This document shows, one piece after another, positions 1 through 61,460 of a DNA stretch of 64,000 nt. Made by a program: the position numbers and the translations under genes. How positions within the stretch are numbered: the stretch's first letter is position 1; each line of letters begins with the position of its first letter. Below the pieces are notes generated by a model, which did no database searches, had not been told where the DNA came from, and saw only the letters and a list, made by a program, of their open reading frames with translations. Source of the stretch: Callorhinchus milii (taxonomy: Eukaryota); NCBI RefSeq assembly GCF_018977255.1, contig NW_024704742.1:98024001-98088000 (forward strand), given 5' to 3'.

Positions 1-374
1 ACACTCACTCACACACACACTCACTCACACACACACACACATACACACACTCACACACACACTCACAAACACTGACACACACACACTCACTCACACACAC
101 TCACTCACACATACACACACTCACACACACACACTCACACTGACACACACACACTCACACACACACACTCACACACACTGACACACACACTCACACACAC
201 TCACACACACACACACTCACACTGACACACACACACACACTGACACACACTGACACACACACTCACACACACTCACACACACACACACTCACACACACAC
301 TCACACACACTCACTCACACACACTCACACACACACTCACTCACACACACTCACACACTCACTCACACACACTG

Positions 375-406
<32 letters not shown>

Positions 407-970
407 ACACACTCACACACACTCACACACACACTCACACACACTCACACACACACTCACTCACACACACACACACTGACACACACTCACACACACTCAC
501 ACACTCACACACACACTCACACTCACTCACACACTCACACACACACTCACACTCACACACACACACACACACACTCACACACACACACTCACACACACAC
601 ACACTCACACACACTCACTCACACACTCACACACTCACACACACTCACTCACACACACACACTCACACACACACACTCACACACACACACACACTGACAC
701 ACACACACACTGACACACACACACACACAGATACACACACACTGACACACACACACACACAGATACACACACACATACACACACACACACACTCACACAC
801 TCACACACACACTCACTCACACACACACACACACACTGACACACACTCACACATACACACACTCACACACACTCACACTGACACACACACTACACACACA
901 CACTCACTCACACACACACACACACACACTGACACACACACACACACACTCACACACATACACACACACT

Positions 971-1007
<37 letters not shown>

Positions 1008-3180
1008 ATACACACACTCACACACACACTCACACACTCACACACAGATACACACACTCACTCACACACACTCACACACACACACTCACACGCTCACACA
1101 CACTCACACATACACACACACACACACTCACACACAGAGATACACACACACTGACACACACACACTCACACACAGATACACACACACTGACACACACACA
1201 CACACAGATACACACACACTGACACACACACACACACACACAGATACACACACACTGACACACACACACACACAGATACACACTGACACACACACACACT
1301 CACACACACACACACACACACACTCACACACAGATACACACAGATACACACACACTGACACACACACACTGACACACACACACTGACACACACACACACT
1401 GACACACACACACACACACTGACAAACACACACACACACTGACACACACACACTGACACACACACACTGACACAAACACACACACACACACTGACACACA
1501 CACACTGACACACACACACACACACACACACACTGACACACACACTGATACAGACACACACACAGACCCTGAGACACACACACACCGACACAGACGCTGA
1601 GACACACACATACACACACTGACACACACACTGACACACACACACACTGAGACACACATACACAGACACACACACACTGAGACACACACACTGAGAAACA
1701 CACTGAGACACACACAGACACTGAGACACACACAGACACACACACACTGAGACACACATACAGACACTCACACAGGCACAGACACACACAGAGACACACA
1801 CACTGAGACAGACACACACACACGCATACGGACACACACACACACACACTGAGACACACCCACACACACAGACAGACACACACACGCAGACAGACACACA
1901 CTGAGACACACACAGACAGAGAGACACACACAGACTGAGACACACACAGACTGAGACACACACACACACACAAACTGAGACACACACACACAGACAGACA
2001 CACACACAGACTGAGACACACACACACACACAGACTGAGACACACACACACACACAGACTGAGACACACACAGACTGAGACACACACAGACTGAGACACA
2101 CACAGACTGAGACACACAGACAAACTGAGACACACACACAGACTGAGACACACACACACACAGACTGAGACACACACACACAGACTGAGACACACACACA
2201 CAGACTGAGACACACACACACACACAGGCTGAGACACACACAGACTGAGACATACAGAGACACATACACACACAAACTGAGACACACAGACTGAGACACA
2301 CACACACAGATGCACACACAGAGACTGAGACACACGCACCCAGATTGAGACACACAGAGACACCCATATACAGACTGAGACACACAGAGACACCCACACA
2401 CACACACAGAGACTGAGACACAGACACACAGACTGAGACAGACTGAGACACGCACACACAGACTGAGACACACAGAGACACACACACACAGAGACACCCA
2501 CACACACACACACAGAGACTGAGACACAGACTGAGACACGCACACACAAACTGAGACACACAGAGACACACACACACAGACTGAGACACACTTACACATA
2601 TTGAGTCACAGACTGAGACACACACAGAGACTGAGGCACACACAGACTGAGACATACAGACTGAGACACACACACAGAGACACACACAGACAGAGACACA
2701 CGCAGACAGAGACACACACACAGACAGAGACACACACACAGACAGAGACACACACAGACAGAGACACACACACAGACAGAGACAGACACACACAGAGACA
2801 AACAAACACACACATAGAGAGACAAACAGACACACACACACACAGGCAGACACACACACGCACACAGAGACACACACACACACAGACAAACACGCACACA
2901 CAGGCAGACACACACACGCACACAGAGACACACACACACACACACACAGACAAACACGCACACAGAGACACACACACACAGACAAACACGCACACACAGG
3001 CAGACACACACACACACAGACCAGGTAAAGAGGGACTGAGACATGCAGAGAGACAGACACACACACACAGGGACAGACAGACACACACACACAGAGACAG
3101 ACAGACACACACACACAGAGACAGACAGACACACACACCAAGGAACAGACAGCCAGAGAGAGAGAGAGACACACACACAC
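1..3180. repeat. CA-rich compound microsatellite/satellite, about 3.2 kb, truncated by the window start
   Basis: (CA)n interrupted by CT/CTGA/GATA (1-~1560), then CAGACTGAGA(CA)n units (~1560-2670), then CAGACAGAGA(CA)n units (~2670-3180). Confidence 0.97.
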
Positions 3181-3309
3181 AAGAGGGAGGGACTAAGGAA
3201 TAGAGAGAGAGGTGGTGGCAACCGATACAGGGACAGGCAGACACAGGGATGGATGGAGAGGAACAGATAGGCAGAGAGGGACAGGCAGTGAGAAACAGAC
3301 AGACACAAT

Positions 3310-11530: not shown

Positions 11531-11735
11531 GATATATGCTCATGAAAGGGTAACCCGTTCCGAAAAACAATTTAGATCTCTTTCAGCATCTCACCGCAAG
11601 CTGCTTCCTAACTTCCTCCCCCACGTGAACAAATTGAGGGAATGCATCGAACATAATTATGAGATCCTGAAAGCGATCATTAACAACTGCAACCATATGT
11701 TTGAAAATAAGGAGTATGGAGAGATTGACATTGAG
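11531..11735 (+). CDS. CARNMT1: Carnosine N-methyltransferase, coding exon 2
   Basis: ttccag|G ATA TAT GCT...GAG|gtaata; [68 protein letters not shown] matches recalled CARNMT1 (HERVNRTERQFRSL...[10 protein letters not shown]). Confidence 0.95.
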
Positions 11736-27203: not shown

Positions 27204-28038
27204 CAACAACAGAAAATAGGTTATGAAAATCATACGGTCCTTTTACTCAATGGAGTATCTCCATTTCTGTAAATCAGTTTACTAAACAAATATAGTAATA
27301 GTGGATTACAACAACATTGTATAATATATACACACAAAGTCCTGTTGCCACGTGTTTTTTTTCTACAGTGCACTGACGCAACAACTGAAACGTGACCGAA
27401 TGATGCTAATTGTATTTAGAAGTACTGAGTTGCATTCAGTACAAGTGTTTAACTGTATTTCGTCCATCCAGAGGATGGGTGTGAGTGAGCGAGCGCCATC
27501 GTTTCCGTGGCAGGTTATGATCCGTCGCCATGTCGGGCGCCGCATCTTCTGTAACGCGGGCGGAGTGAGGAGGCAGTTGCTGGGATCAGACATTGTTACC
27601 CGCCACTCATCTGCAAATCAATCAATCAAATAAAAATTAATTGTCAGAAAAAAAGACAGGTGGTGAGTGAGTGGGGTTGAGAGTGTGTGTGTGTGTGTGT
27701 GGTGTGGGGGGGGGGGGGGGTAACAGGACTTTGTGAACACCCTGTGGGTTCCTATCACTGGGTCTGGAGGTGTCCAACCCCCCAGTCACGGGGTGTGCAG
27801 AGCCGGTGTGGAGCGGGGGAGTCCTCCCCGCCTCTGGGGGGCGACATGGCATTGCCGTCACCTGTAAACCCTGGAGGACTCGCACCTCTCCGCCGAGGAG
27901 AAAGTTTGTGGCGGCTGAGAGCAAAGATTTGAACAGAGAAGAAACTGCAGCGGCAGCAACAGGGAGACAGTGAGGAGACGGTCACACACACACACACACG
28001 CGCGGGGTCAGGGACACGGGGGCTTTGCAAACAGACGG

Positions 28039-28491
28039 ATGCCGAAGAGGAAGGCGGGGGGTGTTTTGTGGGACCATCAGCCTTGGAAACGGTTTATTCC
28101 GACCTTTGTGGAGAAGAGCAACAGAGACATCGCCAGAGCCGCGGGGAGACCTCAGCCCAGACCCCCAGCCCGGGGCCTGGACACCCCCAACCCGGGGCCT
28201 GGAGACTCCCAGCCCGGGGTCTGGAGACCCCCAACCCGGGGCCTCGACACCCCTAACCCGGGGCCTGGACACCGCCAACCCGCAGCCTGGAGACCCCTAA
28301 CCCGGGGCCTGGACACCCCTAACCCGGGGCCTGGACACCGCCAGCCCGGGGCCTGGACACCCCCAACCCGGGGCCTGGACACCCCTAACCCGGGGCCTGG
28401 ACACCGCCAGCCCGCAGCCTGGAGACCCCCAGCCCGCGGCCTGGACACCCCCCGCTCACAGCCTCGGCCTCAGCCCGCAGCACCCGCCCAG
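28039..28491 (+). CDS. C9orf40: C9orf40-like protein, coding exon 1
   Basis: MPKRKAGGVLWDHQPWKRF resembles the recalled N-terminus MAKRRA...HVPWKR; phase-0 donor CAG|gtcagc; lies between CARNMT1 and TRPM6 as expected from synteny. Confidence 0.8.
28169..28452 (+). repeat. 22-bp GC-rich minisatellite, about 13 units, inside the coding exon
   Basis: Unit CCCGGGGCCTGGACACCCC(C/T)AA with variants; three units encode a 22-aa repeat such as RGLDTPNPGPGHRQPAAWRPLT. Confidence 0.95.
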
Positions 28492-28631
28492 GTCAGCCCC
28501 TCCCTCTCTCACTCCCTCCCTCTCTCCCAGCAGCTAATGGCGGATCGTCGCAGAGCCCCGAGTTAACGGGAAGCTCTCAGTGTATAACCATCTTGTGTTT
28601 CGGTGTCGAGACACGTGATCAGGTACCTCGA

Positions 28632-29453
28632 GAAGAGGAAGGTGGGCTCGGGGTGTACTGAAGAGGAAGGTGGGCTCGGGGTGTACTGAGGAAGGTGGGC
28701 TCGGGGTGTATTGAAGAGGAAGGTGGGCTCGGGGTGTATTGAAGAGGAAGGTGGGCTCGGGGTGTATTGAAGAGGAAGGTGGGCTCGGGGTGTATTGAAG
28801 AGGAAGGTGAGCTCGGGGTTTAATGAAGAGGAAGGTGAGCTCGGGGTTTAATGAAGAGGAAGGTGGGCTCGGGGTGTATTGAAGAGGAAGGTGGGCTCGG
28901 GGTGTATTGAAGAGGAAGGTGGGCTCGGGGTGTATTGAAGAGGAAGGTGGGCTCGGGGTGTACTGAGGAAGGTGGGCTCGGGGTGTATTGAAGAGGAAGG
29001 TGGGCTCGGGGTGTATTGAAGAGGAAGGTGGGCTCGGGGTGTATTGAAGAGGAAGGTGGGCTCGGGGTGTATTGAAGAGGAAGGTGGACTCGGGGTGTAT
29101 TGAAGAGGAAGGTGGGCTCGGGGTGTATTGAAGAGGAAGGTGGGCTCGGGGTGTATTGAAGAGGAAGGTGGGCTCGGGGTGTATTGAAGAGGAAGGTGGG
29201 CTCGGGGTTTAATGAAGAGGAAGGTGGGCTCGGGGTGTATTGAAGAGGAAGGTGGGCTCGGGGTGTATTGAAGAGGAAGGTGGACTCGGGGTGTATTGAA
29301 GAGGAAGGTGGGCTCGGGGTGTATTGAAGAGGAAGGTGGACTCGGGGTGTATTGAAGAGGAAGGTGGACTCGGGGTGTATTGAAGAGGAAGGTGGACTCG
29401 GGGTGTATTGAAGAGGAAGGTGGACTCGGGTTGTATTGAAGAGGAAGGTGGAC
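28632..29453. repeat. 28-bp G-rich minisatellite, about 29-30 units, in the C9orf40 intron
   Basis: Unit GAAGAGGAAGGTGGGCTCGGGGTGTATT, nearly homogeneous and head-to-tail with no spacers. Confidence 0.97.
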
Positions 29454-30033
29454 GTGTATGAGGTGAAGCTACGGTTTCACACGAGACACCAGGACAGGGC
29501 AGAGAGTGAGGAGTGGGAGACATGTGGAGTGTAAGCAGCGGCAGCAGCAGTGGGGACTGTGGGCCCAGTGGCTGCTTTGCTATACACTGCATTCTGTGTC
29601 AATCTTCTGTGTACCTGTGTCTGGTGCTCCCAACCTCTACTCCTGCAGCTGAGCTTTTGCAGTTATTTTTGATTCTTTTTTTCTTTCCCCCCCCCCCAAA
29701 AAAAAAATCTGCTTGTGTCTTTGCTTTTTTGCGGTTATTTTCCACCTGTTGCTTTTGCAAATGCAACATTTAAGATGGTTGGGGGTCGGTTGTTATGGGG
29801 GAAGAGATCAGCAAAACACACAAAGAAGTAATGGCCTTCCTAAATTATTGGATCCAAACCTTCTTTGGCAATTATAACAGTGTTTTCATGTGTGAATCTA
29901 CCATATATCTGAGCTACTGTATTGTAATAACTGACATTTACTGTTGTATACTTTGGCTTCTATGCTTATAGTTGAAGAATAACAGGCGTTTTTTTTTCTT
30001 AATTTTTTTCCTTGAATTTTTTTCCCTCTCCAG

Positions 30034-30210
30034 AATGTAGAGTTGAATGATGTGCCGTCCGCATTCAACTCCTTCCAGTTTTGGAGAGTTCCTTTACCTA
30101 CTATCAACTTGGACGAGATTGAGAATCCCACCTTGGAGAATGCAGCCGAAGAAATGAACTGTGAAGAGACAGAGGAGGCAGCACATGTGGAAATGGATGT
30201 GCAGAACTAA
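30034..30210 (+). CDS. C9orf40: C9orf40-like protein, coding exon 2 with stop
   Basis: tttccctctccag|AAT GTA...AAC TAA; FNSFQFWRVPLPTINLDEIE...HVEMDVQN* matches the recalled C-terminal motif YNTFQYWRNPLPPIDLADIE...EVDMES. Confidence 0.9.
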   Translation, partial: NVELNDVPSAFNSFQFWRVPLPTINLDEIENPTLENAAEEMNCEETEEAAHVEMDVQN

Positions 30211-47174: not shown

Positions 47175-48760
47175 GTAAGGTCACTTTATTGCAGAATCAT
47201 TTACAGAATAATTCATACCACAGAATGAAGCCATTCAGTCCATTGAGTCTGTACTAGCCCTCAGAGCAAGCTACACTTTCAATCTCATTTCCCTGCCCTA
47301 TCTCCAAACCCCTTCAAGCATTTAACTTTCAAATACTTGTCTACTTCCCTCTTGAAACCCACAATGAACTTTGCCTTTACCAACTTACTTGACAGGCATT
47401 CCATATCCTAACAAATCTCTTTGCAAAAAAAAATCTCCTTAGCTCTTCTTTCGATCTTCTTGTAACTATCTTAAATTCATGGCCTCCAGTCACTGACTGC
47501 CCTACCATTTTCATTAATTAACCACATTTTTAAAAAAAACATATAAACCATAATGGATTGTTTTTCTTATCGGATTTTATGAATCTCAGGATCAACCTTC
47601 ATGAAGCGAATGTGCCTGAATGCTTTCCATTCAAACCAAGCTTAGGAAAGCATTGTCACAAGATCATAATGTACTTCCAGTGGTCAAAGTGTAATTGAAA
47701 ATAGTAGGAAAAGTTACTCTTTGCTTAAATTCACCTGGAAGGTGAAGTGTTAGAATTAACAGGTGTGAGAGAGAACATTTATACAGTACAACTCTTACAC
47801 CAATCAAAACACACTAGGTGGAACACAGGTTGAATATTGCTTTGACATCTTAAGGAATCTTGGCTGGATATACATAATAACATAATAAAACATCACATAC
47901 ACAAAAGAGAAACTAAGAAACAAAACTGTACAAATATTTAACAAAACTCAACTCAAAGCCTCAATCTATGTGGCATCCAATTCAGCACTTTCTTCAACCA
48001 ACACACCTTGCATGAACCGTATCTCTTTGAAGTTATTGGGGGTTATTTTCCACTTGTCAATAATGTAGCAACTTTGCATCCTACCCTGAATGCTACCAAA
48101 ACATACAGTGTATAATGTTACCAACCTTCAGTGCATGCTTATAAAGTAATGTTTCCATCAAAACAATAACCCCACTTACAAAGAGAGTGTCACTTCTCTT
48201 GACACTATTGCATGCATATTGGTTATTTACAACGCTAGCATTTCCAGACTTGCTGCACTTGTGTGGTGTAATACTTATATAACATTTACAATATTAATTA
48301 ATATATTATTGATATTAATATACCATATCCAGTTGGAGTAGAATATTTGCCTACTATAATCTTGTCTATCTACTTCACATCTTCACTCAGCGTTACCAGC
48401 ATTGCAGATTCTTAAAGGATCTTTCTCTCTAGTTTGCCATCACCCACGTTCCCAGGCATTTACTGTTCGCATTCTTAACCCATTGTTCTGTTTGCCCTCA
48501 AATTGGAGGTTCACTACAAGTTGAGAAAAAACATAACTAGAATAAACATATCTTACAAATAAGTAGGAGGGATGTTTGCTTTGACAAGATATTCAGTTTG
48601 TCAATTTCGAAAAGATGAATGAGATTCAATCTCATAACTTTATGATCCCAAGGCCAGTGTTCAGCCAATTAAGTTGGATGGGATATTCCACTTCAAATGA
48701 ATCAAAAACAAATGTTTTGGACAATATTGAACTCTATCTGAATCTTGTGTCCGAATCCAG

Positions 48761-48941
48761 ATGTTGCTGTGGTCGGCTGGTTAGGGATCACCCCAGTGTG
48801 GATTGCACCTTGCCGGTCTATCTTTCAGCCCTTGGAGATGAACAGGAGGAGTGGTGTGTTGAGAAACACACCCAGAAAAGTCCAACTGATGCCTTTGGTA
48901 CTATTGACTTCCAGGATGGGTCTCATTCCTCTCGAGCAAAG
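48761..48941 (+). CDS. TRPM6: TRPM6 coding exon 4
   Basis: tccag|A TGT TGC...AAG|gtttgt; CCCGRLVRDH...EWCVEKHTQKSPTDAFGTIDFQDGSHSSRAK. Confidence 0.95.
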
Positions 48942-49792
48942 GTTTGTGGGACTTCTATAGGCAGTAGATACAGAAATCAGAAAACATGGGATATTGGGCC
49001 AAGCTGTCTACTAACAAACATAAGGCGGCTTTGGTCACCTTCCTCTCCCTCCCCCTGGCTCGGGCCCGTGATCCATTACTGTGGAGCACTCTGAGATGCT
49101 GTTAGGCGTGGAGGGCACTATATAAATCCAAGTTGTTGTTGAAATTTGTGGTATCACATGTGATGGCTATCAGCTGGGTTGATGGGGAGCGATGATTTAA
49201 CACTTCTTCACTGAATAGTGGTCTAATCTTACTTTTAAGAGTATAACATTAAAATTAAAAAGCTGTTCCAGTGGCCTGGGATTCAAAAACAATACCTGTT
49301 GTGAAGGTGAATCACTCAGAGGATAATAAATGTTTGGAACAGGTTGCCAGGATAGTTGAGGCCAAGATACTGGACTCATTTAAAAAGCAGTTTGATACTG
49401 TGAGGTGGGTAAGAATGGCAGGGTGGATGTTCTGGAGGGATGGACCGAACATCTTGTGATCTTGTATTCAATGGTGCCTTTATTCAGTTCTGAGCTGGAT
49501 TGGTGGGAGAAACCATTCTCTCGAAATGGTGATACAGGAGCGGATCAATCCCAAGCCAGTTTCAAGTACAAGAAAAAAATTACTGTGAAATCTGTTCTTG
49601 TTATGTACCGTACATCCCATTCTCCTCCCCCACATTTAGAAATGATTAGTAAACTGTATACACCTGGTTCAATCATCAATTTCAGCAATTGCTTTTCGGT
49701 AACTAAAGATTATCGAAAATTGGAGGGACATTCCAGCACTCAGTTCTTTTGTTACCTTATTTTTCCACGGTATGCTCTTTCTCTGTCTCCAG

Positions 49793-50006
49793 TATATTAG
49801 AGTCTCGTACGACACTAAATTGGACCAGTTATTACATTTGATGGTGAAGGAATGGCTAATGGAATTTCCAAAGCTGCTTATATCTGTTCATGGAGGCATC
49901 CAGAACTTTGAGCTTGCCCCAAAGGTAAAACAGGTCTTTGGGAAAGGACTTATCAAAGCAGCTGAGACCACCGGAGCCTGGATAGTGACTGAGGGCATCA
50001 ACAAAG
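49793..50006 (+). CDS. TRPM6: TRPM6 coding exon 5
   Basis: tccag|TAT ATT...AAA G|gtactt; [21 protein letters not shown]...SVHGGIQNF...[17 protein letters not shown]. Confidence 0.97.
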
Positions 50007-50074
50007 GTACTTTGGGTTCTGTTAATTGAAGAATTATAGTTGAGATTCAGGACATTAACAGTGAAATGGCATGT

Positions 50075-50478
50075 GCCAACCTGGCTCAGTTGGTAGCACA
50101 TTCAGTTCCTAGACAGAAGGCTGCGTGTTCAAGCCCAATGTTAGGACTTGGAATTGATATAATCTTGGCTGACACTCCAGTGCAGTACTGGGGATGTGCT
50201 ATATTGTTGAAGGGCCATCCTTCGGATGAGTCTAAACTGAGTTCCCATCTGCCTGTTCAGAAAGATCCCATTGCAAAAAGGGAAGGCAACAGTCCCCCAA
50301 ATAAAAAAAAATGGTCAGTAACTTCATGGGTGTTTGTGCGACATTAGTGTGTGCAAATGGGCTGTTTCATTCATCCACGACATACACAGTCATTGCACTT
50401 TACCATGTATCCTGTGAAGCACTTTGAGACATCCTCCTGACATGAAAGGTGCAATATCAAATGTAAGGATTATTATCA
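50075..50478 (+). mobile_element. Older tRNA-headed SINE
   Basis: GGCTCAGTTGGTAGCAC...GTTCAAG head, core, L2-type tail. Confidence 0.7.
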
Positions 50479-51267
50479 AAATAACAAATGAGGAAGTGAG
50501 GAGCCACCTGTTCAATCAGCACAGGTTTATTCTCACAGGAGAAACATCAACAGACCAACAGCAACAACTTACATTTATATAGCATCCTTCATGCAGGGTA
50601 GCATCCCAGAAAGCTTGACAGTGGCAGAGTCTGACCCCAAACCAGGGGAGAGGGAGGGGGCAGGTGACCGTAAGCACGATCTAACAGTGACATACCACAG
50701 TCCTTATACAATGCAAATTGAAGGGCTGCAGGCATTTGGGTTCAGGCCCGACTGTGCAAAGTGCAATGACTGTGCAACCCCTCTTACATGCGGCTTCACA
50801 ATCCCCCCCCATGTTCTAGACACCCATGCCAGCCTATGGCTCAGACAACTTTGTTCCCTGGCTAAGCTCCAGAGGGGAAAGAGAGAGAGGTTTGAGGGCT
50901 CAATGACACCCTTTAAACCCGCACAAGCTCTGCACCTCTCTCAGGTACAACCAAAGGGCTTCATTCCCAGTGTCTGTTACAATACTTACAAACCAATATG
51001 TGTGAGATTTATAGTAACGCGTATTTACTGCATATTTCATAGAATCATAGAATAATACAACACGGAAGGAGGCCATTCGGCCCATTGTGTCTGTGCCGGC
51101 TCTTTGAAAAGAGCTATCCAAATCAATTCTACTCCCCATAGCCCTGCAAACTTGTCCTCCCCAGTAATTGTAGGTTAACTTATCAAGTTAAATGATGGGC
51201 TATGTGTGACAAATGTTTTATTTGTGTGATACTTGCAACAACTATGTGCCTTCTGGTTTTGGATCAG

Positions 51268-51392
51268 GAACTTCTAGACATGTCGGAGATGCCCTCAGAG
51301 ATCATGCTTCCTATTACCTGCGAAAGATCTGCACAGTGGGAATTATGCCATGGGGAGTTATCGAAAACCACAGAGACTTGATAGGAAAAGAT
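51268..51392 (+). CDS. TRPM6: TRPM6 coding exon 6 (GC donor)
   Basis: atcag|GA ACT TCT...AAA GAT|gcaagt; [41 protein letters not shown]. Confidence 0.92.
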
Positions 51393-52532
51393 GCAAGTAT
51401 TCCTCAGTACCTTTGACGTCTGATTATTTATTTGATCTTTTGGGCTTCTCCCATGCAACAAATATGCTGTCTATGTTGACACTACAGTTCCCTTTAATTC
51501 CAATCCTCTTATCTAAAGTGTCTGTACTGACACCTGGTGACAGTATAAATAATTTCAAGGAACTAGGTAAACACATCTATACGCTGAATATATGTCTTAC
51601 AAAAATCTTCCCCAAAGAGATTACAAGAGAGGAATTTCATTTGATTTAACAGTACTTTAGTGGTTTAGAACATTTTCTTAATCCTCTACAGATAGTATAG
51701 CCTATTTAGCCAAATATATTTCGCTATTTCCAATACACAATATAACACAAAATCACATTTTATAGCGCTTTTCACCTTGGGAGGACATCCGAAGGTGCTG
51801 GAAACACAATATAAGATAACGGTGGTTGAATCAGATAGTGTATTCAAGAGGATGCTAAGTCTTCACATGAGGGAGAGAGGAATAGAAGACTTTGGGAGGG
51901 AGTAAGGATTGAGTGAAGACTTATGCGGAGTATAAATACTGACCTGGACTGATTGGGCTGAGTGACCTGTTTCCACGCTGTATATTCTTTGTAAATCTTT
52001 GCAGATATTTGGATTGCATTTGTTCTTTAAAAAGAGGCAGCAGAAAACGAGCTTTGAAATTAAGCCCGGATTTAAGAGTCTTCCAAAACGTCGCTATCAA
52101 TTCGCTTTGGAATGCTTAAAAGTGCCTCAAATGTTGAAGTAAAATGTGTCTCCACATCAAAGCCAATGGGGTGTTTATGTGCACTAAACAAAGTGCTGTA
52201 TTGAGAGAAACACAAGAGTTTGCGTCGCTAGCTTTAACCAGCTTTTAAACATTAGCAAGTCTTTTGCAGACTAAAATAGACTAAGACAGACAAGAAGAAA
52301 ACATTGATAATACAAACACTGACTAAGATACAAGAGTGATAAAATTGTTTCCAATGTTTTCAGAGTTGATGTGCAATGTGGTTACCAAAGGGATCGGTGG
52401 AGGCCAGGACATTGGGTTCATTTTAAGGAAACTTGATGCTGTAATGGGAATGGGGTATTCTAGAAGGATAAGATCAAATGGGCCAGAGGATCATCTTCAT
52501 TCAAACCTCTCTTATGATCCTATGTATTTCAG

Positions 52533-52704
52533 ATAGTGTGTCCTTATCAGACTCTTGGAAATCCCCTGAGCAAACTCACCAGCCTGAATAGCAAGCATTC
52601 ACATTTTATACTGGTGGATGATGGAACTGTTGGCAAGTATGGGAATGAAATGAAGCTCAGAAAAAAGCTGGAAAAATACATTGCTCTTCAGAGGATAAAT
52701 ACAC
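52533..52704 (+). CDS. TRPM6: TRPM6 coding exon 7
   Basis: ttcag|ATA GTG TGT...ACA C|gtaagt; [57 protein letters not shown]. Confidence 0.97.
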
Positions 52705-53782
52705 GTAAGTGCAGTCAAATTTTCATATCAATGATTCCCTCCACTCTTTATCCACAGCTACCCATTGTTGTACTAATGATTCAACGTTAAACTCAGCAAC
52801 TTTCTTGATCTCATATGTCCTCTACTGACATTCTTCAATTATCAGTATTCTTGGGCTCACTAGGATCTGACTGGATTTGATTTTCAAATTGAATTTGATT
52901 TGCAAATAGAAACCTCCAGTTGCGAATACTGAAAACTTACCATATTTACTATTATGATTTCTAAAAGTCAGCTGAATCCCAAAAGAATGCCAGAGTGCCT
53001 TGCATATGTGGAGAGATCTTTCTACAATCTCTTTCACTGCTGGACACAACACAAGAAAATGTATGTTGCCTGATAGCTGAGCTTTCCCTTTCTTCTAGCT
53101 TCCAATCACTCTTTCTCATACTCCTCTATTGTTCTTTTCTTTCTCTAATTCATAAATGCAGCTATAATCATTACGGTTACAATATTTTCCTTTTGTATCT
53201 ACTAGGCTCTAAATATGGCATGTTCCATAATCCTTCTCCTAGCTCCATCACCATTGTATTGAAATCAACACATATCGTCCATCTTCTACTGTAACTCATT
53301 CTTTGCCGTTAAGGCTGTGGAACTCCTTAGCCCTCTCAGTCATCTCTTATAAACTACGGCTATGATATTCAAGAATGGCGTCAATTTCTATGCTACTTGG
53401 CTTCTTTCCTTTTTTATTCTATTTTTAACCTCTGGGATACTCAAAATTCAAGTCTTGGCCTTTCACAGAGGTTTCTCAATGATTGAAAAGATGCGCAGGT
53501 AGTGAAGGGAGCGAGATGTGAAGATGTTTTTCTCGCAGTTGGATGAACAGCAGCTGTTGAATATCAAACGATTGAGAGTTTCATAACACAAATGGAAAAT
53601 GGGATTCATTTGCAAGTTCCTAACTTCTTTGGGGCCTAAAATGCAACAATTTCAATAAGATCTGAAATGGAGGATCCTTGCTTTTGGAAGTAAATTGTAA
53701 ATTTCTGACATTCAGGTTGATGTATTGTACTTTAATATATCAGAAAGATAGATAATAGAAGGAGATTCCATTTGTGTGACTC

Positions 53783-54355
53783 AACAACAACAACAAATTA
53801 TATTTGTATAGCACCCTTCACGTCAGGATGACATCCAAAGGCGCTGGACAGTCAGGGATCTGCACACGAGCTGGTGGTTGGGTTCAGGAGGGGTGGAGGG
53901 TTGGGGGAGTAGGGATAGGAGGGTGACTGAAAGCACGGTCGAAGAGGAGAGTCTTGAGATGCGTCTTCAAGGAGGCAAGTGAGGGGGCAAGGTCGAGAGA
54001 CTGTGGAATGGAGTTTCAGAGGATGGGGCAGAGAGGCTGAAGGCCAGTCCGCCAATGGTGGGTCGGCAAAGCGGGGGATGTGAAGCAGGCCGGAGCCCGG
54101 TGAGTGGAGGGAGCAGACAGATTTGTAGGGGGTTAGGAGGTAACAGAGGTATGGAGGAGTGTGGCCATGGAGGGCTTTCAAGTTGAGGACCACGATCTTG
54201 AACTGTATCCTCTGTGTTATGGGAAGCCAGTGGAGTTGGGCACGGATGGAGGTGATAGTGTCGTGGAGCCTGGTGCCGGAGAGGACACGGGCTGCAAAAG
54301 TTCTGGATGATCTGCAGCCTGTGGAGGGAGGAGTTGGGGTGGCTGACAAGCGGGG
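53783..54355 (-). mobile_element. L2 LINE 3' fragment
   Basis: AARVLSGTRLHDTITSIRAQLHWLPITQRIQFKIVVL; (TTG)n tail. Confidence 0.88.
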
Positions 54356-54742
54356 AGTTTGCCTGGGTGTGATGATTCAGTTATTTTATCAAAGAATCTT
54401 GACAGATTATCCCATTATAGATCCCTTTATATTAATTAATTTAACAATGATAAAATGTCTTACGTCTTTGAAAAAACTTGAACATTCAGTTTTACTTATT
54501 CTGGCTCTTTTCCATAAATCAGGATTACTTAAGAATGAAAAGAACTTGGTGCAGCTGTGACCCCAGGCATAGGAGTATGTATAGAAGATATTGGAACAGC
54601 AAAAAGCCTTGGTAGCTCAAATAAACATTCAAAATTGACCTACAGCACTGAATGCTCTACTATTTTCAGGATTTCTGGATGAGTTCACTGCATTTTACAT
54701 ATAAATCTTGGGTTAATAAGTTGTTGCTTTTATTTCAAACAG

Positions 54743-54917
54743 AAATGGGCCAAGGTGTCCCTATTGTGGGGCTGGTAATTGAAGGTGGTCCTAACGTGAT
54801 CCTGACAGTGTGGGAATATGTCAGGCATACTCCCCCCACACCTGTCGTTGTTTGTGAAGGAACAGGCAGGGCAGCCAATATCCTGGCTTTTACACATAAG
54901 CATACTGCAGATGGTAG
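54743..54917 (+). CDS. TRPM6: TRPM6 coding exon 8
   Basis: aacag|AA ATG GGC...GGT AG|gtatgt; [25 protein letters not shown]...[21 protein letters not shown]. Confidence 0.96.
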
Positions 54918-55833
54918 GTATGTTCCTGTTCATATATTCTCTCTTTCCCTCTGTATTCGTGTACTGTGTTTATAAAACAACAGTAATCCTTGCATTTGAT
55001 ATAGCACCTTCCACATCAGGAGAAAGTCTCAAAGCGTTTCACACGATTTACTTTAAAGTAGTGACTGTATTTTATAGGTGAATTTACTTGGATACAAAAT
55101 GTGTGTATACATATAACTTAGGCCATTTGAACAGTGAAATGGTTACTAGTATCATACAGTTTAATTGGTTACATAGAGATGTTTAAATAGAGTTGTCATA
55201 AATGCATGCAATCGGATTTTCAGTAATCAGCAGTTTATTGAAATATGCTTTCAAGGGTCATTTTCTTCCAGAAAACCTGCTCGACAGATATTTTAACAAA
55301 CATACAAGGTGTATCAGATTGAAGCATTGTTGTATCATTGACAGCATTCGAATGAAATTGACATAAGATTATTCTTATACTTCTGCCCTTAACAAAAATG
55401 TGTTGCCCAGCATATAATCTTGATGCCACTCATGTCCATTAGATGCCAATGCTACGGATCTTTTTGTTGCTGGAATTCCCATTATCTACACAGAATAAAA
55501 ATTTGCCTATCAAGAGTGATGAATACCTATTGGACCAAATTGCCTCTCTAAATATATATATATATATATATATGTTTCTACCCAGCATATTACTGGCCAT
55601 TACTGCATCCTCCATCGACCAGGGTTGCAATGATTTGATTTTGAGGTTTCAGTGTATTGTGCTACAATTAGTGAGTGTTCTTAACACTATGGCCAAGAAG
55701 TAGATCTTGATATTTTAAGAACTTGGTCATGAATTCAATAACATGTAAATAGCAGATCTCAGCTCAGACTGATTTCATTTGTTCACACCCTCTCTGATGG
55801 ACTATTTGACATGCACATTTACGTGTATTACAG

Positions 55834-55957
55834 ACACCTTTCTCCTGGGTTGGAGGATGAGCTAATACTGATGATACAGAAGACCTTCAATTTTGGACAG
55901 AAGCAATCCAATCATTTATTTAACATTCTTACAGAATGCATGGAGCACAGGGAATCG
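55834..55957 (+). CDS. TRPM6: TRPM6 coding exon 9
   Basis: tacag|A CAC CTT...TCG|gtgagt; LEDELILMIQKTFNFGQKQSNHLFNILTECMEHRES. Confidence 0.95.
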
Positions 55958-56744
55958 GTGAGTGCGTTCCAACCTGCAGCGATCTTGGGTAAAGTTTCAG
56001 AATGTTTATGTTTACATAGTTCAAGATCACAAGATTGGTTTGAGTGAAGAAGGCCCTTTTCCCCCTCTGATCCCATCCTTCCAGGATATCCATCCTATCA
56101 TCCTCCCATCACAACATCAAGCTGATTTGTAAATGAGTTCAGTGCCCTGGCCTCAACCACTCTGCATGGCCACCTGTTCCAGATGTTAATTACCCTCTGA
56201 GTAAAGCAGTATGCATGTGTCCAGTGCAGAGCAGCTTCATTGGTAAATATACTGTATCCAACAGATTGGGATGTCCTCCTGACATGAAAAGCGCTATACA
56301 AATGTAATTTTGTATTGTATTGTGCAACTTCAATTCGTGTGATATTTTTGGGCAGTGAGAGAATGTTTAATCCCTTGGGGTGAGACAAGTCAAGACTGGT
56401 GAATGGTGACCAGTGTTGGTGAATGGAATACATTTCCATTCCTGTTTTTCCTTCTTGACATTATACTCCCTTCCCAAATGTTGGGCTCCAAAGGACCGAT
56501 AGTAGTGGAGTTAACCACTCTATTGAAATCAGCTTATTCTGTTTGCCAGAATTTATATATAATGACCCATGAACAGAGGAACCAAAGTCCATTGTATTTT
56601 ATATTTGAAGCTTGTTTCCTTAGTAAATTATAATGTCAAAATAAATATCAAAATCCATAAGTTGTAGACTAAAAGTCTCAAGATCTCTTGTTTCAGATGG
56701 AAAATCTTGAACTAGTGAGTATTGTCTCTGGAACTGGCACCCCT

Positions 56745-57277: not shown

Positions 57278-60200
57278 AAAAAAAAAGCGAGAAATTTAAA
57301 AAGTGTTACATCAGAACGACGTCAGTATCAACAGTAAACTAACAACTATCAACACATTACACATCATGGACTTAACTTGATCAACTTAATTGGATCAACT
57401 TGATTAAATTAAAACTTAATTAACTTAACCTAATTAACTTAAGTTAACTAATTAACTAACTCAAGTTGGAAGAGGTGACAATGGCCCGGCAGTGTTATGT
57501 GAGGAGTGTGACATGTGGGAGCTGATGGAGGGCAGTCTGACCCCGGGTGACCACATCTGCAGAAGATGTCTGCAACTGAGCTGAGCTGAGCTGGAGTCCG
57601 AGGTGCAGACACTACGGAGTATCAGAGACAGTGAGTGCTTCCTGGATAGCTACATCCTGGAACCAATCACTCCCCTGAAGGAATATACACTCAACATTGA
57701 TTATGGTCAGGATAGGTCAATGGACAGTCAGGAGGTCAGGGGGATAATGGAAAGAATGGTAGTAAATCCGGCATTAACCTTGAACAACAGGTATGAGATC
57801 CTTGGAACTTGTCTCAACAAGGAAGCCGGTGAGGTGGAAGGAAAAGCTACCTCTAACACTGGGGCAAAAGAGCAGATGGTTGTCGTCATTGGGAATGAGA
57901 CTATTAGGCAGACAGACACAATCATCTGCAACACCAACCAAAACACCAGAAGGCTTTGCTGCCTCCCTGGGACCGGGGTGAAGGATGTCTCGGCAGGGCT
58001 AGAGGATAATTTAAAATATGAGGGCAAGGATCCATTGGTGGTATTTCACATAGGTACCAATGACATTAGTAGAGTTGGCCAAGATGACTTGAGAAGGGAA
58101 TTCAAAGAGCTGGGGTCCAAATTGAAGTCAAGATCATCGAAGGTGGTAATATCGGGACTACTTCCTGTATCATACGACAATTGGTACAGGAACAAACAAA
58201 TTAAGGACTTGAACGCATGGCTAAACGAGTGGTGCGTAACTCAGGGGTTTCTTTTTATGGGCCATTGGCATGAGTATTGGGGGAAAAGAGCTCTTTCAGA
58301 GCAATGGGCTGCATTTAAATCGGGCTGGGACAAATGTCCTAGCTAAACAAATTAATAGGGAGGTAAATAGGAATTTAAACTAGTAAAGGGGGGGAATATA
58401 TCGGTAAGAGAAACCATAAGTTAGCATTAGAAAAAGTAAAGATGACAGTGCAGAATAGCATGCCAGATAATAGGAATATGTTAACTAGGGGTAAGAAGCT
58501 TGGCAAAGCAGATAAGGAATCAGAGAGTACAGGAAATGTTAGGAAATTAAAAATGTTATATTTGAATGTGCGAAGCATTCGGAATAAAACTGATGAATTA
58601 AAAGCACAGATAGACACATGTGGGTATGATCTAGTAGCCATCACTGAAACATGGTTACAAGGAGATCTAGGGTGGGAGTTAAATATTCCAGGGTTCTCAG
58701 TTTACAGGAAAGATAGGCACTGTGGGAAACGAGGTGGTGGTTGTGGGTGGGGGGGTGGCCCTGTTAATTAGGGATGAAATAAAAGCAGTGGAGAGAAAGG
58801 ATCTGAAATCTGATGACCAGGAGGTTGAGACAATATGGTTGGAAATAAAAAATAATGAAGGGCAGAAAATATTAATGGGAGTGGTTTATAGACCCCCAAA
58901 CAGCGATCACAATGCAGCACAGGGTATCAACCAAGAAATCAGTGGAGCGTGTAGGATAGGTAAAGCGATCATAATAGGTGATTTCAATCTCCACATAGAT
59001 TGGGAAAACCAAATCAGCAAAAGTAGGTCAGAAGAAGAGTTCATTGAGTGTATGAGAAATAACTCTCTAGAGCAGCATGCCAAGGAACCAACTAGGGGAC
59101 AGGCCATCCTAGACCTTGTTTTGTGTAACAAAACAGGGCTTGTCGGCAGTGTAAGTATTAAGACTCCTCTAGGGCAGAGTGATCACAATATGATTGAATT
59201 CTGCATTAAGTTAGAGAGGGATATAGTTAAATCCGAGGCAAGTATTCTGAATTTAAATAAGGCTAATTTTGTAGGTATGAGGAAAGATTTAGGTAAAATA
59301 GACTGGAGAATAAGATTAAGAAGTAAAAATGTAGACCAACAGTGGCAAATATTTAAGGATGTAGTGCAAAATTCTCAGCGGTCGCATATTCCCTTGCGGA
59401 ATAAGAGTACCACAGGGAAAGCAATTCATCCGTGGCTAACTAGAGCAGTTAGGGAAAGCATCAAATTAAAAGAAAAGACTGATAAAACTGCCAAGAAAAG
59501 CAGCAAATCTGAAGATTGGGAGAGTTTTAGAAATCAGCAAAATAAAACTAAAAAACTCATTAAGAGTGAGAAAAAGGAGTATGAGGGTAAGCTAACCAGG
59601 AACATTAAGTCAGATTGTAAAAGTTTTTACAAATATATTAAGAGGAATAGGCTAGTGAGGGTAAATGAAGGTCCACTTCAGTCAGAGATGGGAGAAGTTG
59701 TAATGGGGGATAAGGACATGGCAGAGTCCCTAAATGGGTACTTTGCATCTGTCTTCACCCTAGAAGACACAACAAGTCTGCCAACAATAGAGATGCAGCA
59801 AGGGGATAAGGACAGGGAGCAACTTAGGGAAATTTTAATTAGTAGAGAATTGGTGCTAGAGAAACTGTTAGCACTAAAATCCCCTGGTCTGGATGGCTTG
59901 CCTCCCAGGGTTTTAAAAGAGGTAGCTTATGAGATAGTGGAGGCCTTATGTCTGATCTTCCAAAATTTCTTTGATTCTGGAACAGTCCCCATGGATTGGA
60001 AGATCGCAAATGTCACACCACTATTTAAAAAAGGTGGAAAGGAAAAGATGTGGAACTATAGGCCAGTTAGTCTCACATCAGTGATAGGAAACATTTTAGA
60101 ATCATTGATTAAGGATGTGGTAGTCTGGTATTTAGGGAGCACAATATAATTACGCCAAGTCAACATGGCTTTACAAAAGGGAAGTCTTGTTTGACAAATC

Positions 60201-61460
60201 TCATAGAATTCTTTGAGGCTATTTCGAGTAAACTAGATAAGAGTGAATCAGTGGATGTGGTCTATTTGGACTTCCAGAAGGCATTCGATAAGGTGCCGCA
60301 TAAAAGGTTAGTCCAAAAGGTAAGTGCCCATGGAATTGGGGGGAGCATATTAACGTGGATTGGGGAATGGTTAACGGGTAGAAAACAAAGAGTAGGGATA
60401 AACGGGTCCTTTACAGATTGGCGGGATGTGACTAGTGGAGTGCCACAAGGATCAGTCCTTAGGCCTCAGCTATTTACCATCTACATCAACGATCTAGATG
60501 AGGACATCGAAGTTAATATATCTAAATTCGTGGATGACACAAAACTAGGAGGAATTGTGAACACAGAGGACGACATTAAAAAAATGCAGCGAGATATAGA
60601 TAGGTTAGGTGATTGGGCAGGTGGGTGGTAGATGACGTATAATGTAGGGACGTGCGAAGTCATCCACCTAGGTAGCAAAAACAGTAGAGCGGGTTATTTT
60701 TTAGAAGGGGAGAGATGGGAATGTGTTAGCGTCCAGAGGGACTTGGGTGTCCTTGTACACCAATCACAGAAAGTTAGTCTGCAGGTGCAGCAGCAATTAG
60801 GAAGGCGAACGGTATGTTAGCATTCATTATGAAAGGATTAGAGTGTAAAGGTAGGGAAGTCTTGCTGCAACTGTATAGGGCCCTGGTGAGACCACACCTG
60901 GAATACTGTGTGCAGTTTTGGTCTCCTTATTTAAGGAAGGATGCACTTGCCTTGGAGGAGGTGCAGCATAGATTTACTAGGTTAGTACCAGGGATGAAGG
61001 GGATGTGTTACGAGGATAGGCTGACCAATTTTGGCTTATATTCTCTAGAATATAGAAGAATTAGAGGGTATCTTATAGAAACCTATAAGATCATCAAAGG
61101 GCATGATAGAGTAGATAGTGGGAGATTGTTTCCCCTGGTTGGAGAAACTAAAACCAGGGGTCACAACCTTAAAATCAGAAGCCAGCCCTTTCGCACTGAG
61201 TTGAGGAAGAACTTCTTCACTCAAAGGGTGGTGAATGTATGGAACTCACTACCCCAAAGGGCTGTTAATGCTCAGTCCTTGAACATATTCAAGACTGAGA
61301 TAGATATATTTCTTATTGCAAAAGGGATTAAGGGATATGGGGATAAGGCATGGTTATGGTATTAGCTGGAGTTAGATTAGAAGATCAGCGATGATTGAAT
61401 GGCGGGGCAGGCTTGAAGGGCCGAATGGCCGACTCCTGCCCCTACATGTTATGTTATGTT
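57278..61460 (+). mobile_element. Near-full-length CR1 LINE (ORF1 zinc finger + SGNH esterase; ORF2 AP endonuclease + RT), inactivated
   Basis: ORF1 CEEC-x16-CRRC (~57498-57570), CCLPG and HIGTND; ORF2 YLNVRSI, ITETW, GVVYRPP, GDFN, SDH, NYRPVSLTS, PQGS, FVDD; frameshifts near 58740, 60140 and 60800, stop at 60629; (ATGTT)3 tail. Confidence 0.96.

What the first reader, a model, noticed from the sequence alone, without database searches (positions are those of the whole stretch)
28169..28452. Coding 22-bp minisatellite translated in all three frames, with stop variants excluded from the in-frame position
Seen: the 22-bp unit is not a multiple of 3, so successive units shift frame and the protein repeat is 22 aa per 3 units (about 4.3 copies, e.g. 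RGLDTPNPGPGHRQPAAWRPLT). Each unit ends CAA, CAG or TAA. TAA occurs in units 4, 6, 7 and 10, where the triplet is out of frame. Units 2, 5, 8 and 11, where it is in frame, all end CAG or CAA. The array supplies about 95 of 209 residues. Inference: selection keeps the frame open, the array can change only by multiples of 3 units (66 bp), and +/-1 or 2 unit slips would be null alleles, making a built-in mutable switch. Caveat: the numbers are small, and duplication of a 66-bp higher-order unit could give the same pattern.
Basis: partly seen in the sequence, partly recalled or inferred. Interest (0 to 1): 0.7.

Follow-up and report, generated by a model that had tools for sequence, protein, structure and literature searches.

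The report
Coding 22-base repeat in C9orf40
In the elephant shark, nearly half of the small protein C9orf40 is encoded by a variable 22-base DNA repeat that stays in frame only in blocks of three units; it looks like tolerated repeat growth in a floppy linker under selection against frameshifts, not a gene switch.

Summary
Thirteen 22-bp units (28159-28454) lie in coding exon 1 of a two-exon gene identical to RefSeq XP_042194220.1 (Callorhinchus milii, 209 aa). It is the C9orf40 orthologue (Pfam WRNPLPNID; flanked by CARNMT1- and TRPM-like exons), misnamed SF3A2. Contigs of two probable RNA runs enter the array from the start codon and leave at the donor after it. The TAA pattern alone is weak (p 0.14-0.18) and partly circular. 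Better evidence for frame constraint: units are ordered with period 3 (p 0.0045), unlike the intronic 28-bp array next door (p 0.93), and an older RefSeq model's array is 66+1 nt longer. Laid runs show different unit variants, none a stop; array lengths could not be genotyped. The array fills a disordered linker that varies in sharks and has its own repeats in 2 of 10. It probably grew from an ancestral W-x4-RGL motif. An internal KRK motif seen in 28 of 28 orthologues is missing. Nothing supports an adaptive switch. This scan noted similar non-triplet coding repeats in bacteria. Verdict: real, an unusual member of a known kind.

The parts
27862..28038 (+). Probable 5' UTR of exon 1
   Evidence: Contigs of two RNA-guess runs cover from 27862 (X6) and 27902 (X5) through the ATG; contigs cannot show a true start
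28039..28491 (+). Coding part of exon 1 of the C9orf40 orthologue (aa 1-151)
   Evidence: Spliced ORF identical to P0001/XP_042194220.1
28039..28113 (+). Conserved basic N-terminal block (MxKRK...PxKRF), aa 1-25
   Evidence: 11-14 of 25 residues identical to 10 shark and ray orthologues (alignment)
28159..28454 (+). 22-bp minisatellite, 13 units plus a partial one, ordered as a 66-bp higher-order unit; encodes about 4.3 copies of a 22-aa Pro/Gly/Arg repeat
   Evidence: predicted disordered, pLDDT about 46-56
28254..28388 (+). Span holding the four out-of-frame TAA triplets (28254, 28298, 28320, 28386)
28492..30033 (+). Phase-0 GT-AG intron
   Evidence: Both RefSeq models join here; X5 and X6 contigs match up to 28491 and have more letters beyond, with no depth after 28505, while X1 and X2 run on
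28632..29451 (+). Intronic 28-bp minisatellite, 29.5 copies; used as non-coding control
   Evidence: no period-3 order, p 0.93
30034..30210 (+). Coding part of exon 2 (aa 152-209 and stop), with Pfam WRNPLPNID motif
   Evidence: PF15017, E 1.3e-7, 32.8 bits, cut-off 27; 26-33 of 58 residues identical to 10 shark and ray orthologues

Best explanation
A lineage-specific, polymorphic coding minisatellite has expanded in the disordered linker of the elephant shark C9orf40 orthologue. The protein's conserved parts are its two ends; the linker tolerates almost any length and sequence. [quoted passage not shown] The out-of-frame TAAs are hitch-hikers of that order. Shown: coding status, orthology, period-3 order, unit polymorphism. 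Inferred: selection as the cause, 66-bp allele steps, and origin by slippage between the TGG of Trp and a TGG spanning Leu-Gly 22 nt later in an ancestral W-x4-RGLG motif.
For: Spliced ORF equals a RefSeq protein. RNA-guess contigs of two studies enter the array and leave at the donor. Orthologues keep both ends while the linker is 81-118 aa against 126 here, and 2 of 10 sharks and rays carry their own 10-aa repeat there. AlphaFold2 gives no fold: mean pLDDT 53.7, pTM 0.15. Period-3 order p 0.0045 in the coding array against 0.93 in the intronic array, whose unit is also 3n+1. Toy simulation: order this strong in 4-17% of unconstrained arrays, 92-100% of frame-restricted ones. Older model P0002 is 67 nt (66+1) longer between fixed anchors. 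The four variant sets read from the runs give no stop. W-x4-RGL occurs with the same spacing in 2 of 10 sharks.
Against: No contig spans the array, so no allele length was measured. P0002 carries an unexplained extra base and could be an assembly overlap or error. One 3- or 6-unit duplication can give period 3 without selection (4-17% in the toy model). The intronic control is more homogeneous, so it has less power. The internal KR[KR] motif of 28 of 28 orthologues is missing, which hints at relaxed function. No shark DNA and no other chimaera was seen, so the origin model rests on protein motifs picked after seeing the alignment. No peptide evidence.
Confidence: 0.72

Rival explanations
1. 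The gene is under relaxed selection or decaying in this lineage; the frame is open in this allele largely by luck and a recent 66- or 132-bp duplication made the period-3 order.
For: Loss of the internal KR[KR] motif; P0002 implies an allele or assembly with a 1-nt frameshift; 15 of 25 unit variants change an amino acid; free evolution gives such order in 4-17% of toy runs.
Against: Exon 2 is 45-57% identical to shark and ray orthologues, with intact splice sites and the same length; the variants read in four runs give no stop; RNA-guess contigs from two studies.
Confidence: 0.17
2. One reading: the non-triplet array is a contingency-type locus kept because unit slips turn C9orf40 on and off.
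For: The architecture allows it: every +/-1 or 2 unit change removes the C-terminal motif; the array differs between runs; P0002 may reflect an out-of-frame allele.
Against: No such allele observed; period-3 order points to removal of such alleles; a diploid, slowly reproducing vertebrate gains little from stochastic germline switching (own knowledge); knock-down of human C9orf40 induced a senescence-like phenotype (PMC7333371, passages).
Confidence: 0.04
3. The 22-aa repeat is a new functional module (multivalent Pro-rich docking sites or P-T/S-P phospho-sites) and copy number tunes it.
For: Phase-specific variants recur (R in PGHRQ, R in WRP); the family motif is annotated as a putative WW-binding element; sharks also expand this linker.
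Against: Repeat sequence is not shared with the shark repeats; the copies differ freely; recurrence follows from block duplication.
Confidence: 0.07

Closest known systems
Vertebrate C9orf40 (Pfam PF15017 WRNPLPNID family, with AF1q/MLLT11)
   Same: Basic N-terminus, C-terminal NSFQFWRVPLP motif, variable linker; lies between a carnosine N-methyltransferase exon and a TRPM gene, as human C9orf40 lies with C9orf41 and TRPM6 (PMC6978610 passages; C9orf41 = CARNMT1 is recalled)
   Different: Linker is a 22-bp minisatellite; internal KR[KR] motif absent
Human coding VNTRs with motif length not a multiple of three
   Same: About 21% of 2,254 short human coding repeats and 12% of 265 polymorphic ones are not zero-mod-3 (PMC9379575 section 18); non-3n exonic VNTRs are described as typically purged (PMC12776774 passages)
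   Different: This array is 290 bp, about 45% of the protein, with a visible three-unit order and a non-coding control 180 bp away
KSHV kaposin B/C direct repeats
   Same: GC-rich 23-nt repeats translated into 23-aa repeats, variable copy number (PMC8906436 passages; PMC10266750 passages)
   Different: Viral; several frames are used from separate starts; here one conserved cellular ORF needs one exit frame. An analogy, no homology
Bacterial simple-sequence contingency loci (phase variation; recalled)
   Same: Non-triplet repeat in a 5' coding region could shift the frame
   Different: No switching shown; long unit, diploid host, conserved intracellular protein

Membership tests
C9orf40 orthologues | WRNPLPNID (PF15017) motif near the C-terminus | tested here: met
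   above the curated cut-off
C9orf40 orthologues | Homology of both ends to proteins named C9orf40 | tested here: met
C9orf40 orthologues | Synteny with CARNMT1 and TRPM6 | tested here: met
   CARNMT1 match E 1.3e-23; TRPM exons downstream. TRPM subtype not resolved: best solved matches are TRPM3, TRPM1, TRPM7
C9orf40 orthologues | Internal KR[KR] basic motif | tested here: not met
   Present in 28 of 28 orthologues, absent from P0001 and not seen in the other two frames just before the array
SF3A2 (the RefSeq name) | SF3A2 family domains | tested here: not met
   Only PF15017 is found in P0001
Coding VNTR | Tandem array inside a spliced coding exon | tested here: met
   RNA status of runs X5 and X6 is the tool's guess
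Coding VNTR | Copy number varies between alleles | tested here: inconclusive
   Unit sequence and contig pattern differ between runs; P0002 is 67 nt longer; no contig spans the array
Contingency (phase-variable) locus | Frequent reversible on/off alleles with a selected phenotype | not testable with these tools
   Needs long-read genotypes and phenotype

The most novel reading that the evidence does not exclude
A conserved vertebrate gene acquired half of its protein from an out-of-frame slippage in its own coding sequence, passing through frameshifted null alleles, and on/off alleles (+/-22, +/-44 bp or the +1 form implied by the older model) still segregate commonly, so that C9orf40 behaves as a repeat-driven polymorphic switch in elephant sharks.
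Probability: 0.08. Interest if true: 0.7.

Novelty: new member of a known kind. Interest (0 to 1): 0.32.

Why it matters
A recent review states that formal tests are lacking for whether frame preservation in exonic VNTRs reflects purifying selection (PMC12776774, passage). This locus offers a clean test: a coding 3n+1 array and a non-coding 3n+1 array 180 bp apart in one amplicon. It also shows how a non-triplet unit can turn into an effective triplet-length unit, and it corrects a RefSeq name (SF3A2 for a C9orf40 orthologue).

Tried and rejected
TAA exclusion as proof of selection: p 0.14-0.18, and only two of three phase classes carry the variant. Array length from the laid runs: all are contigs, none spans the array, 12 of 40 pieces were not shown, so depth was not turned into copy number. 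No run was on record as RNA; X5 and X6 are guesses. Bins without cover in X1 and X5 are not counted as absence. No whole genome was held, so no genome-wide count of such arrays. No other chimaera appeared in four protein searches. A hidden KRK motif or a compensated frameshift in the other frames: not found; linker alignments reach z above 3 only for 2 of 10 orthologues and are explained by the shared W..RGL motif and low complexity. Full-length search hits from the repeat alone (such as P0003, P0004, P0033) were treated as low-complexity matches. Paper searches: 'elephant shark' + 'C9orf40' 0 papers; Callorhinchus + tandem repeat + minisatellite 3, none on this locus by listing; Ohno's oligomeric-repeat idea 0 papers (recalled only). 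A search of this scan's notes by sequence found nothing.

Full report
1. Observation. The array is there: period 22 x13.3 and period 66 x4.4 at 28159-28452, with 13 unit matches in the window, all here, against 0.08 expected. The four TAAs are out of frame, but 4 TAA units missing 4 in-frame slots has p 0.18 among 13 units or 0.14 among 12. The T variant sits in two of the three phase classes, three times in one of them, so there are about two independent events.

2. The gene. ATG 28039 to 28491, joined to 30034-30210, gives 209 aa identical to P0001, RefSeq XP_042194220.1 of Callorhinchus milii, named 'splicing factor 3A subunit 2'. The only Pfam family is WRNPLPNID. Its full-length relatives are shark, ray, lungfish and amphibian proteins mostly named C9orf40 homolog. 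A carnosine N-methyltransferase exon lies upstream and TRPM exons downstream, as for human C9orf40 near C9orf41 and TRPM6 (PMC6978610, passages). The gene is the C9orf40 orthologue. Its function is poorly known: listed among uncharacterised S/G2-M genes (PMC6788831, passages), and knock-down gave a senescence-like phenotype (PMC7333371, passages). Supplements of these papers were not read.

3. Is the array in the mRNA? I laid 4 of 24 listed runs (14 hold the stretch; none is on record as RNA). In X5 and X6 (RNA by the tool's guess, two studies) single contigs run from 27902 or 27862 through the ATG to 28194 or 28198, inside the array. Others match up to exactly 28491 and have more letters (98 of 122; 85 of 1206), and depth is zero from 28505, whereas X1 and X2 continue into the intron. 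The letters beyond 28491 were not displayed and no contig spans the array. Both RefSeq models use the same junction. Translation was not tested.

4. Protein context. Ten shark and ray orthologues share 11-14 of 25 N-terminal and 26-33 of 58 exon-2 residues; their linkers are 81-118 aa against 126 here, and 2 of 10 (Cetorhinus, Mustelus) have their own 10-aa repeat there. AlphaFold2 on a 15-row alignment gives no fold (mean pLDDT 53.7, pTM 0.15). An internal KR[KR] motif is present in 28 of 28 orthologues examined (12 sharks and rays, three of them near-identical; 16 amphibians and lungfish; fragments P0014 and P0034, and P0002, P0037, P0038 left out) and absent here. Whether that loss is older than the array is unknown; no other chimaera was found.

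5. Frame constraint. In silico, 50 of 50 one- or two-unit gains and losses remove the conserved C-terminal motif, by an in-array TAA (29) or a stop 7-17 nt into exon 2 (21); 22 of 22 three-unit changes keep it. So TAA is not needed for a null; it only decides whether the stop would be a likely NMD target. Units three apart are more alike than others (p 0.0045; periods 2, 4, 5 not significant; period 6 p 0.014), while the 29 units of the intronic 28-bp array show no such order (p 0.93). That control has low diversity and so less power. In a toy model of duplication, deletion and point mutation, order this strong arose in 4-17% of free arrays and 92-100% of frame-restricted ones (assumptions are mine). 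Several variants cross phase classes, so out-of-register exchange or recurrent mutation does occur.

6. Variation. The older model P0002 (XP_007897576.1) starts from an upstream ATG, reads units 1-6 in another frame, then switches to the canonical frame at a point equivalent to 67 nt back; its array is 351 nt against 284. That is one 66-bp block plus one base, with two further residue differences. It may be another allele with an error, a real frameshifted allele, or an assembly overlap. In the runs, unit 12 takes at least three forms other than the window's and unit 4 one; as placed, they give A126G, A132T or silent changes and no stop (placement within a repeat can be off register). Contig breaks and depths also differ from what the window allele alone predicts, for example X2 at depth 26 on words single-copy in the window against 16 in the flank. 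The array is polymorphic in content; its length steps remain unmeasured.

7. Origin (inference). The repeat reads W-x4-RGLD; Heterodontus and Pristiophorus have W-x4-RGLG once in the linker (2 of 10 exact, 6 of 10 loosely; 0.001-0.002 per shuffled linker, but the pattern was chosen after looking). In that motif the Trp TGG and a TGG across Leu-Gly would be 22 nt apart, which is the spacing of TGG in the array. Slippage there gives a 22-bp unit, and the present array is about 12 units (4 x 66) longer. Birth would need frameshifted intermediates or one multi-unit jump. Shark DNA was not seen.

8. Comparison. Non-3n coding repeats are a known minority: about 21% of short human coding repeats (PMC9379575, section 18), and are said to be typically purged (PMC12776774, passages). 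Kaposin's 23-nt to 23-aa repeats are the closest in arithmetic (PMC8906436, PMC10266750, passages). PMC1273636 (passages) reports 14% of human coding repeat polymorphisms as not multiples of three. This scan's notes hold bacterial cases with 7- and 10-bp units (unchecked). Searches showed no paper on this locus; subscription journals are mostly not covered.

9. Verdict. Real, coding and polymorphic; best read as tolerated repeat growth in a disordered linker filtered by frame (0.72). Relaxed selection 0.17, functional repeat module 0.07, adaptive switch 0.04. New member of a known kind; interest 0.32, mainly as a test case with a built-in control.

Noticed in passing
window 28632-29451: Second minisatellite, 28-bp unit x29.5 with two 25-bp units, 180 bp downstream in the intron; 96% matches, purine-rich top strand. 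Two arrays side by side suggest a local hotspot at this GC-rich gene start.
   Followed up: partly
window 28039-28491: Internal KR[KR] motif found in 28 of 28 orthologues is absent from the elephant shark protein.
   Followed up: partly
P0006, P0042: Basking shark and Mustelus orthologues carry an independent 10-aa repeat in the same linker.
   Followed up: partly
P0001: RefSeq name 'splicing factor 3A subunit 2' does not fit; some shark orthologues are named 'protein AF1q'.
   Followed up: yes
P0022 (Pelobates): The frog orthologue has the C-terminal NSxQFWK motif twice.
   Followed up: no
window 27982-28000: CA microsatellite in the probable 5' UTR varies in length among the laid runs.
   Followed up: no
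window 11535-11723 and 48585-56050: CARNMT1-like exon upstream and TRPM-family exons downstream.
   Followed up: partly
window 1-3181: 3.1-kb degenerate AC-rich simple repeat.
   Followed up: no
window 57585-61365: Long, broken LINE-like element (endonuclease and reverse-transcriptase-like frames, recognised from memory) within the TRPM gene region; further fragments at 9.9, 19.9 and 40.7 kb.
   Followed up: no
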